Part shown: positions 5,898 to 6,780 of the stretch, piece after piece
Numbering within the stretch: the stretch's first letter is position 1
How the letters are laid out: each line of letters opens with the position of its first letter
Assembly (NCBI GenBank): GCA_951406725.2
Contig: OX597821.1
Coordinates: forward strand, 5,332,001-5,396,000
Direction of reading: 5' to 3'
DNA: 64,000 bases
Source of the DNA: Octopus vulgaris
Lineage: Eukaryota
Translations under genes and position numbers: made by a program
Notes under the pieces: generated by a model
What the model was told of the DNA's origin: nothing
The model's database searches: none
The model's input: the letters and a program-made list of their open reading frames with translations, nothing else

Positions 5898-6288
5898 AGC
5901 CAAACCGGAACAGATATTTTTCACGAGGCATTCTCATTGCTACCTCGTCAATATCTGACCTAAAATTTTCAAATCGTCGCACTCGCGCCAAATTTATCGG
6001 CAGCAAATAAATATAAGCCGCCGATTCCATTACGGAATTAACCAGAAAATTCATAATTAATCAATATAGGGTGGCAAAAAAAATTTTGTAGAATTCTACA
6101 AAATTTTTTTTGCCACCTATATTGATTAATTATGAATTTTCTGGTTAATTCCGTAATGGAATCGGCGGCTTATATTTATTTGCTGCCGATAAATTTGGCG
6201 CGAGTGCGACGATTTGAAAATTTTAGGTCAGATATTGACGAGGTAGCAATGAGAATGCCTCGTGAAAAATATCTGTTCCGGTTTGGCT

Positions 6289-6395
6289 ATTTCTTACTGA
6301 TGAATCTAAGGGCCTATGGTAGATTGGCTTGATTTAATTTAATCAGGTTAGTTTTCCATTAAACAGAAGATGAAACGGTGCATCGTCTAAGAAAT
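6289..6395 (+). ncRNA. Type I hammerhead ribozyme
   Basis: Stem I ATTTCTTA/TAAGAAAT; core CTGATGA (6297-6303); stem II ATCT/AGAT with a long extension; GAAA (6372-6375); near-palindromic stem III CGGTGCATCG; GUC triplet with predicted cleavage after 6387. Confidence 0.88.
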
Positions 6396-6780
6396 TACAG
6401 GGTAAATGTTTTTCAATTTTCTCCTGGTTTACGGAATTGACGTTATTTTGCGGTTAAAGCTTTTGGCTGTTATTTCTAGTGGGTGAATGGCCTATTATGG
6501 CCGTTCCTTGATTGTTGATGTTGAACTTAAAAATGGTTTATGACTATTTAATTTTTTCCCACTAGGCCGCTGGTGGCAAAAGAATTCTACAAAATTTTTT
6601 TTGCCACCCTATATTGATTAATTATGAATTTTCTGGTTAATTCCGTAATGGAATCGGCGGCTTATATTTATTTGCTGCCGATAAATTTGGCGCGAGTGCG
6701 ACGATTTGAAAATTTTAGGTCAGATATTGACGAGGTAGCAATGAGAATGCCTCGTGAAAAATATCTGTTCCGGTTTGGCT

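What the first reader, a model, noticed from the sequence alone, without database searches (positions are those of the whole stretch)
6094..6608. Whole repeat unit folds into a branched, viroid-like structure, including a hairpin across the inversion-defined unit boundary
Stems seen on the plus strand: TTAATTCCGTAA/TTACGGAATTGA (long-range, enclosing the ribozyme); ATCGGCGGC/GCTGCCGAT; CAGATATT/AATATCTG enclosing ACGAGGTA/TGCCTCGT; CTAGTGGG/CCCACTAG enclosing GAATGGCC/GGCCGTTC; GGTGGCAAAAGAATT/AATTTTTTTTGCCACC. Many contain G-U pairs. The long-range stem spans the cleavage site, so after cleavage it can form only if the monomer ends are brought together, as in a circle. This suggests a compact circular RNA.
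Basis: partly seen in the sequence, partly recalled or inferred. Interest (0 to 1): 0.72.

Follow-up and report, generated by a model that had tools for sequence, protein, structure and literature searches.

The report
Hammerhead retrozyme with Penelope insertion scars
A 491-base non-coding repeat in an animal genome carries a self-cutting hammerhead RNA motif in every copy and sits twice in TA repeats as head-to-head pairs with the same two outer ends, so it is likely a small parasitic retroelement (a retrozyme) copied by a Penelope-type transposon, possibly from an RNA circle that has not yet been observed.

Summary
All seven stems are real and the 492-nt unit folds better than shuffles (plus strand z -5.8 to -6.5; minus -3.6 to -4.1). 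The 'inversion boundary' is not a unit boundary: a second copy (22540-23152) inverts elsewhere. The element is a non-LTR retrozyme. Each unit has a type I hammerhead with a palindromic loop III, predicted to cut only as a dimer, and a 68-nt helix II arm that Rfam misses. Both insertions lie head-to-head in (TA)n and end at the same two unit positions (132 and 238/239), a 107-nt 'tail'. [quoted passage not shown] All units of locus 1 share alleles rare in the family and run through the cleavage site, which fits repeated copying of one template, likely a circle. Cleavage, expression and circles are untested. Known kind; the insertion-signature link to PLEs is the useful new detail.

The parts
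5070..6093 (-). Locus 1, left arm: 2.1 units, sense on the minus strand; its 3' end (unit position 238/239, end B) joins (TA)n
6094..7502 (+). Locus 1, right arm: 2.9 units; its 3' end (unit position 132, end A) joins (AT)n 7501-7686
6090..6097 (.). Inversion centre of locus 1: an 8-nt palindrome at the top of the 6572-6608-type hairpin; the arms join with no spacer
6388..6879 (+). Monomer between two cleavage sites (492 nt; other units 490-491 nt); longest ATG ORF inside the array 66 codons; no tRNA
6289..6395 (+). Type I hammerhead: stem I 6289-6296/6388-6395, core 6297-6303 and 6372-6375, cleavage predicted after 6387 (GUC)
   Evidence: core unchanged except N7 in the 40 rows shown
6304..6371 (+). 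68-nt helix II arm: 4-5 bp base, internal loop, 19-position hairpin (one mismatch)
6375..6386 (+). Self-complementary helix III / loop III; predicted 12-bp duplex with the next ribozyme (-17.5 kcal/mol)
   Evidence: double change at 6380/6381 keeps the palindrome
6781..6887 (+). Hammerhead copy, cut predicted after 6879
7272..7378 (+). Hammerhead copy, cut predicted after 7370
5791..5897 (-). Hammerhead copy, cut predicted at 5799
5301..5407 (-). Hammerhead copy, cut predicted at 5309
6429..6648 (+). Long-range helix 6429-6441/6636-6648, enclosing helices 6476-6483/6558-6565, 6485-6492/6499-6506 and hairpin 6572-6608; it encloses both fixed ends
6520..6626 (+).
   Evidence: loose end at 6519 followed by (AT)n in one contig of run X1
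6653..6767 (+). Hairpins 6653-6682 and 6721-6767 (nested 6730-6755)
22540..22973 (-). Locus 2, left arm: unit positions 294-492 and 1-238, about 93% identical to locus 1, one whole hammerhead (22866-22776; U7C, GUA triplet), ends in (TA)n
22967..23152 (+). Locus 2, right arm: unit positions 437-492 and 1-132, joined to the left arm through a microhomology of about 5 nt, ends in (AT)n

Best explanation
It is a 491-nt, hammerhead-bearing tandem repeat, a non-LTR retrozyme, that is likely transcribed, predicted to be cut to monomers by paired ribozymes and likely closed into RNA circles, which a Penelope-like retrotransposon's enzyme would copy into TA microsatellites. Shown by sequence: one intact type I hammerhead per unit, two head-to-head insertions in (TA)n with the same outer ends, arms that run through the cleavage site, and shared rare alleles within each locus. 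Predicted by folding: two neighbouring ribozymes pair through loop III and form an active-type core, whereas a lone ribozyme in a circle rarely does, so multimers would be cut and circles spared. Inferred: a GIY-YIG endonuclease nicks both strands of (TA)n; each 3' end primes reverse transcription at one of two fixed internal sites (132 and 238/239); the cDNAs roll round the template for up to three turns and are joined head-to-head by microhomology at hairpin tips.
For: Hammerhead: 6 whole copies in the window, all in this family. Of 40 substitution rows shown (42 found) in four runs, only N7 varies in the core and none lies in stem I; locus 2 changes only N7 and the triplet to GUA. A GC-to-AT double change keeps loop III self-complementary (1 contig per position in X17, 12-13 in X15, rare). 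The free fold of a two-ribozyme precursor forms the loop III duplex (10.7 of 12 pairs) and one cross-copy stem I (7.7 of 8); a single-copy active fold has P 3e-8 there and 2e-4 in the circle. Structure on the plus strand: 11 of 15 substitutions at paired positions keep a pair, against 4 of 15 on the minus strand. PLE signature: same outer ends at both loci, different inner junctions; end A plus (AT)n seen again in one X1 contig. A truncated PLE remnant with a GIY-YIG-like ORF end, inverted terminal repeats, a 54-nt tail and (TA)n flanks surrounds locus 2. Inverted 5' copy, tail and microsatellite bias are PLE traits (10.1101/2021.04.23.441226 and PMC3846280, passages); the tail is the stretch between two RT start sites (PMC11167929, main text). 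One template per locus: alleles at 6355, 6367 and 6441 make up 0.6%, 0.2% and 0.1% of summed depth in X15, yet every unit of locus 1 that covers them has them.
Against: No cleavage, transcript or circle was observed. 4 of 15 paired-position changes break a pair, one of them common (6657 G>A, 74% in X1, 38% in X15); the pairing test gives P 0.03 in two nulls but 0.19 in the third, rows are related and unphased; 2 of 7 paired changes in locus 2 break pairs. The fully double hammerhead has P only 0.014. The tail is 107 nt against 30-40 bp described. End B was not among the 15 of 59 loose ends shown. The unit has no significant similarity to the PLE remnant beside it, so its partner is unidentified. 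In the one purified PLE, uncleaved RNA was the main substrate and the ribozyme was dispensable (PMC11167929); 8 of 9 Xenopus retrozyme dimers did not cleave in vitro (10.64898/2026.07.22.740005). Homogeneity within a locus can also come from a young uniform source array, gene conversion or assembly polishing.
Confidence: 0.6

Rival explanations
1. Same PLE-driven insertion, but the template is an uncleaved linear multimer (read-through of a tandem array, or pseudo-LTRs detached from an autonomous PLE); the hammerhead is carried along and circles are not needed.
For: Unprocessed RNA was the main substrate of the purified Poseidon protein and ribozyme mutants still inserted (PMC11167929, main text). 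Cleavage-site-to-end distance here (132 nt) matches that of the PLE remnant's terminal repeat (127 nt). Nothing in the fold requires a circle.
Against: The core and stem I stay unchanged while 40 listed changes fall elsewhere. Units of one locus share rare alleles. The share of laid contigs that run on into unlike sequence is 0, 0, 0.04 and 0 in the four runs, so no attached ORF shows, though the contigs are short.
Confidence: 0.28
2. A DNA-level satellite or fold-back element amplified by recombination; the RNA fold is a by-product of local palindromes.
For: The minus strand also folds better than shuffles (z -3.6 to -4.1). The locus-1 centre is a spacer-free palindrome.
Against: Changes favour G-U pairs on one strand (11 against 4 of 15). 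Intact ribozyme core. Unequal arms with two fixed ends in (TA)n at two loci.
Confidence: 0.06
3. An endogenised infectious viroid-like or satellite RNA.
For: Size, hammerhead and predicted dimer-gated cleavage resemble hammerhead viroids (recalled).
Against: Ribozyme on one polarity only; 56% paired; 6952 contigs laid in one run of the same organism label, a many-copy family; no match to the hammerhead pattern in viral contigs.
Confidence: 0.04
4. The inversion is a long-read fold-back artefact.
For: Near-perfect 1-kb palindrome without a spacer; differences are mostly homopolymer indels.
Against: Arms are unequal, flanks are not mirrored, and a second, 7%-diverged locus has the same ends with another junction.
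Confidence: 0.02

Closest known systems
Metazoan non-LTR retrozymes (Cervera and de la Pena 2020, PMC7229834; parts 2-4 of 6 read, supplement not readable)
   Same: Non-coding tandem repeat, low GC (36%), one type I hammerhead per unit, short helix III with palindromic loop, self-paired monomer.
   Different: 491 nt against about 170-400 nt there (51-972 bp in the 2026 preprint); 68-nt helix II arm; head-to-head insertion in (TA)n with two fixed ends, where that paper notes larger target duplications and has 0 occurrences of 'inverted' or 'microsatellite' in its main text; circles shown there, not here.
Retrozymes as non-autonomous PLE derivatives (Li, Clavereau and Pollet 2026, 10.64898/2026.07.22.740005; parts 1-3 of 5 read, supplements closed)
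   Same: Tandem type I hammerhead units beside PLEs in one genome.
   Different: They argue from co-occurrence and terminal-repeat homology and leave mobilisation open; here the link is the insertion signature, and no homologous PLE was found.
Endonuclease-bearing Penelope-like elements, Neptune type (10.1101/2021.04.23.441226 and PMC3846280, passages; PMC11167929, main text; PMC4209133, parts 1-2 of 4)
   Same: Partial tandems, inverted 5'-truncated copy head-to-head, palindrome at the junction, tail on one end, (TA)n target, hammerhead about 130 nt before the end.
   Different: No RT or endonuclease ORF; perfect short tandem; tail 107 nt instead of 30-40 bp; 8-bp helix I and long helix II rather than a minimal hammerhead.
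Hammerhead viroids and viroid-like satellite RNAs (recalled; search listings only)
   Same: Size range, hammerhead, predicted dimer-gated cleavage.
   Different: Genome-encoded, many copies, ribozyme on one polarity, less compact fold.

Membership tests
non-LTR retrozyme | Short tandem repeats with a type I hammerhead in at least two consecutive units | tested here: met
   3 consecutive on plus, 2 on minus at locus 1
non-LTR retrozyme | Non-coding; no LTR structure | tested here: met
   Longest ATG ORF inside the array 66 codons, frameshifted by the deletion at unit position 370 in locus 2; no tRNA gene. PBS and PPT were not searched for separately.
non-LTR retrozyme | GC under 50% and self-paired monomer | tested here: met
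   36% GC; z -5.8 to -6.5
non-LTR retrozyme | Dispersed, many copies | tested here: met
   2 loci in 64 kb; 6952 contigs laid from X15, relatives in runs of two other organism labels; depth is no copy number
non-LTR retrozyme | Self-cleavage of the transcript | not testable with these tools
   Predicted as a dimer only
non-LTR retrozyme | Expression as linear and circular monomer RNA | not testable with these tools
   Only assembled contigs were available; they show neither strand nor ends
non-LTR retrozyme | Large target-site duplication when present | tested here: inconclusive
   Both loci lie in (TA)n, which hides duplications
type I hammerhead ribozyme | CUGANGA / GAAA / NUH core among three helices, helix I open | tested here: met
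   Rfam gave no hammerhead hit, likely because of the 68-nt helix II arm
PLE-mobilised element | Tandem plus inverted head-to-head arrangement | tested here: met
   2 of 2 loci
PLE-mobilised element | Tail on one end from two RT start sites | tested here: met
   Ends at 132 and 238/239 in 2 of 2 loci; 107 nt, longer than the 30-40 bp described
PLE-mobilised element | Homology to the terminal repeat of an autonomous partner | tested here: inconclusive
   No similarity to the one PLE remnant in the window; no host genome held
autonomous PLE | RT plus GIY-YIG ORF | tested here: not met
hammerhead viroid | Ribozymes in both polarities; no DNA stage | tested here: not met
   One polarity of the unit; genomic copies
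hammerhead viroid | RNA-to-RNA replication | not testable with these tools
   Needs strand-specific RNA data

The most novel reading that the evidence does not exclude
Each insertion is a fossil of twin-primed rolling-circle reverse transcription: a PLE enzyme primes from both nicked strands of a TA tract at two fixed sites 107 nt apart on a 491-nt RNA circle, and the hairpins beside those sites are its recognition signals. The circle would be the smallest natural substrate that yields the whole tandem, inverted and tailed PLE insertion pattern, and would tie retrozyme circles directly to PLE enzymes.
Probability: 0.4. Interest if true: 0.65.

Novelty: new member of a known kind. Interest (0 to 1): 0.4.

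Why it matters
Which enzyme moves animal retrozymes, and whether the circle is the template, is proposed but not shown (PMC7229834; 10.64898/2026.07.22.740005), and how PLEs make tandem and inverted insertions with a tail is called undefined (10.1101/2021.04.23.441226). This family carries the PLE signature on an ORF-free 491-nt unit with base-exact ends, so both questions could be tested with one short RNA. Its long helix II also shows a hammerhead shape that Rfam did not detect here, so such families may be undercounted. The folding itself is ordinary for a retrozyme.

Tried and rejected
Rfam: 0 hits at gathering score over the window; 6 weak hits, none a hammerhead, at E up to 10 over 6200-6900. 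No host genome held, so no genome-wide count of ends and no search for the partner PLE. Sequencing runs: no RNA holder listed; 14 holders are only guessed to be RNA; 4 of 24 runs were laid, all as contigs. The 'goes back 492' joint only bridges my own cut inside the unit and is not used as evidence of a circle. Hammerhead pattern scan: 0 in viral contigs; 2 in metagenome contigs, both GC-rich chance matches without stems or similarity. The first hammerhead descriptor was faulty and printed nothing; it was rewritten. ARAGORN: 0 tRNA genes. The 66-codon ORF is frameshifted in locus 2 and was dropped. For the PLE fragment, Pfam on the fragment itself and the word-index search gave nothing; the ESM Atlas gave a GIY-YIG lead only at 0.85. 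Earlier findings by sequence: none; by seven words: none. Literature: 7 searches gave no description of this family or of fixed PLE-type ends in a retrozyme; Repbase/Dfam, the supplement of PMC7229834, the preprint's supplements and Lunse et al. 2017 could not be seen and may hold it. The host looks cephalopod-like from recall only; this was not tested, so no claim of a first in that group is made.

Full report
Setting. The window is AT-rich (30-41% GC), dense in microsatellites and without long clean ORFs, as in an animal genome. No host genome was held. The finding lies in a 2433-nt insert, 5070-7502, between (TA)n tracts: 2.1 units of a 490-492-nt repeat on the minus strand joined head-to-head, at the palindrome 6090-6097, to 2.9 units on the plus strand. 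The units differ by 3 substitutions and a few homopolymer indels in all.

The observation. All seven stems exist and form in the predicted ensemble. The monomer 6388-6879 folds at -144.2 kcal/mol as a circle (z -6.5, 60 shuffles) and -147.2 as a line (z -5.8, 100 shuffles); the reverse complement gives z -4.1 and -3.6. Of 20 background windows tested (44 candidates), 1 scored lower, and it is an inverted repeat. The fold is therefore real and stronger on the plus strand, but only 56% paired. What does bring the monomer ends together is hammerhead stem I, as in any type I unit, and it is better formed in the linear monomer (4.7 of 8 pairs) than in the circle (0.5).

The ribozyme. A descriptor finds 6 whole type I hammerheads in the window, all in this family: 8-bp stem I, intact core, GUC or GUA triplet, a 68-nt helix II arm and a self-complementary helix III region. 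Rfam does not detect them. In contigs of four runs (three organism labels), 40 of 42 substitution rows were shown; only N7 varies in the core and none lies in stem I. Position 6367 is T in most family members, restoring a helix II pair, and 6308G and 6367C occur at similar depth in X15 and X17 (unphased). A rare GC-to-AT double change at 6380/6381 keeps loop III palindromic. Folding a two-ribozyme precursor without constraints pairs the two loops III (10.7 of 12) and forms one cross-copy stem I (7.7 of 8); the fully double form has P 0.014, a single-copy active fold 3e-8, and 2e-4 in the circle. This is the dimer-gated design described for metazoan type I hammerheads (PMC4209133, parts 1-2 read; PMC3088659, passages). 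It is a prediction, not an assay.

Are the stems kept? Of the 40 rows, 15 fall on paired positions of 10 helices; 11 keep a pair on the plus strand and 4 would on the minus strand. P is 0.03 against two nulls and 0.19 against a third. Six such rows lie in the long-range helix and 5 keep it. Against: 4 break pairs, including the common 6657 G>A; 2 of 7 paired changes in locus 2 break pairs; rows are related and unphased; the 6308/6367 pair, mismatched in locus 1, was left out of the count. Support is moderate.

A second locus changes the reading. 22540-23152 holds a copy about 93% identical, again head-to-head in (TA)n. Its inner junction is different (unit positions 294 and 437, about 5 nt of microhomology), so the inversion does not define the unit. 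Its outer ends are the same: position 238/239 on the left, 132 on the right. One X1 contig also ends at 132 followed by (AT)n; end B was not among the 15 of 59 loose ends shown. Inner junctions fall at hairpin tips or edges in both loci, and two X15 joints start at the helix II tip, 6339; the numbers are small.

That layout is the signature of endonuclease-bearing Penelope-like elements: partial tandems, an inverted 5'-truncated copy, head-to-head junction palindromes, a tail on one end and microsatellite targets (10.1101/2021.04.23.441226 and PMC3846280, passages read). The tail is the stretch between two internal reverse-transcription start sites (PMC11167929, main text read). The window has its own control: locus 2 is nested in a truncated PLE remnant, 21955-23682, with inverted 207-nt terminal repeats, a 54-nt tail, (TA)n at both ends and a hammerhead-like core 127 nt before the end. 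Its 50-codon ORF end hits 8 proteins at E up to 0.001; 3 of the 8 carry a Pfam GIY-YIG match (2 at or above the curated cut-off), and 2 of the 5 printed show the cysteine linker that I recall as Neptune-like. An older, decayed hammerhead repeat at 54062-54975 has the same plan. Neither is homologous to the 491-nt unit.

Template. All four arms run through the cleavage site, so the template was not a cut linear monomer. Every unit of locus 1 that covers them carries alleles that make up 0.6%, 0.2% and 0.1% of summed depth in X15 (6355, 6367, 6441), and the two arms of locus 2 are 100% complementary over 186 nt, including their GUA triplet. Each insertion thus comes from one template unit copied repeatedly. 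A circle explains this most simply; a young uniform array, gene conversion or assembly polishing can too. This is better evidence for a circle than the fold, but still indirect.

Mechanism, with status. Shown: anatomy, ends, targets, core conservation. Predicted: dimer-gated cleavage. Inferred from known retrozymes (PMC7229834, parts 2-4 read): ligation to circles by a host ligase. Inferred from PLE biology: double nicking of (TA)n, priming at 132 and 239, rolling copies, microhomology joining. I put the whole chain at 0.6, the same element with an uncleaved linear template at 0.28, and other readings at 0.12 together.

Novelty. Retrozymes are known across animals, and their PLE origin is proposed (10.64898/2026.07.22.740005, parts 1-3 read). 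Seven literature searches showed no account of this family or of fixed PLE-type ends in a retrozyme, but Repbase/Dfam and several supplements were not visible. Earlier AI notes of this scan describe similar TA-targeted PLE-type layouts in other genomes; they are leads, not support. Verdict: a new member of a known kind, with a long helix II and an unusually clear PLE insertion signature. Interest 0.4.

Noticed in passing
window 21955-23682: 5'-truncated Penelope-like element: GIY-YIG-like ORF end 22220-22369, inverted 207-nt terminal repeats (22009-22215, 23476-23682), 54-nt tail, hammerhead-like core at 23522-23555 with C in place of A9 in both repeats; retrozyme locus 2 is nested in its internal (TA)n.
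   Followed up: partly
window 54062-54975: Older hammerhead-bearing repeat with about 322-nt period, head-to-head in (TA)n, palindromic helix III, decayed cores and a tail of about 58 nt; arms 72-82% alike.
   Followed up: partly
window 6339 (helix II tip): Two joints in run X15 start here, one to 6388 and one into the loop of the 6572-6608 hairpin; locus 2's right arm starts in the same tip. Possibly a template-switch hotspot.
   Followed up: no
window 6320 and 6355: The T-T mismatch in the long helix II arm is A-A in locus 2 and both changes are the majority in X1 and X15, so a 1x1 loop may be kept there.
   Followed up: no
window 7919-8000, 8430-8520, 8640-8700, 40569-41881: Dispersed copies of a SINE-like repeat, with a 184-nt tandem and a 328-nt inverted pair at 40569-41881.
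   Followed up: no
window 6624-6824: A 66-codon ATG frame starts at end B and runs into the hammerhead; frameshifted in locus 2, likely chance.
   Followed up: partly
window 37393, 38869 and 45265 (492-nt windows): Background windows with folding z of -4.3, -4.0 and -5.1 on one strand; not examined.
   Followed up: no
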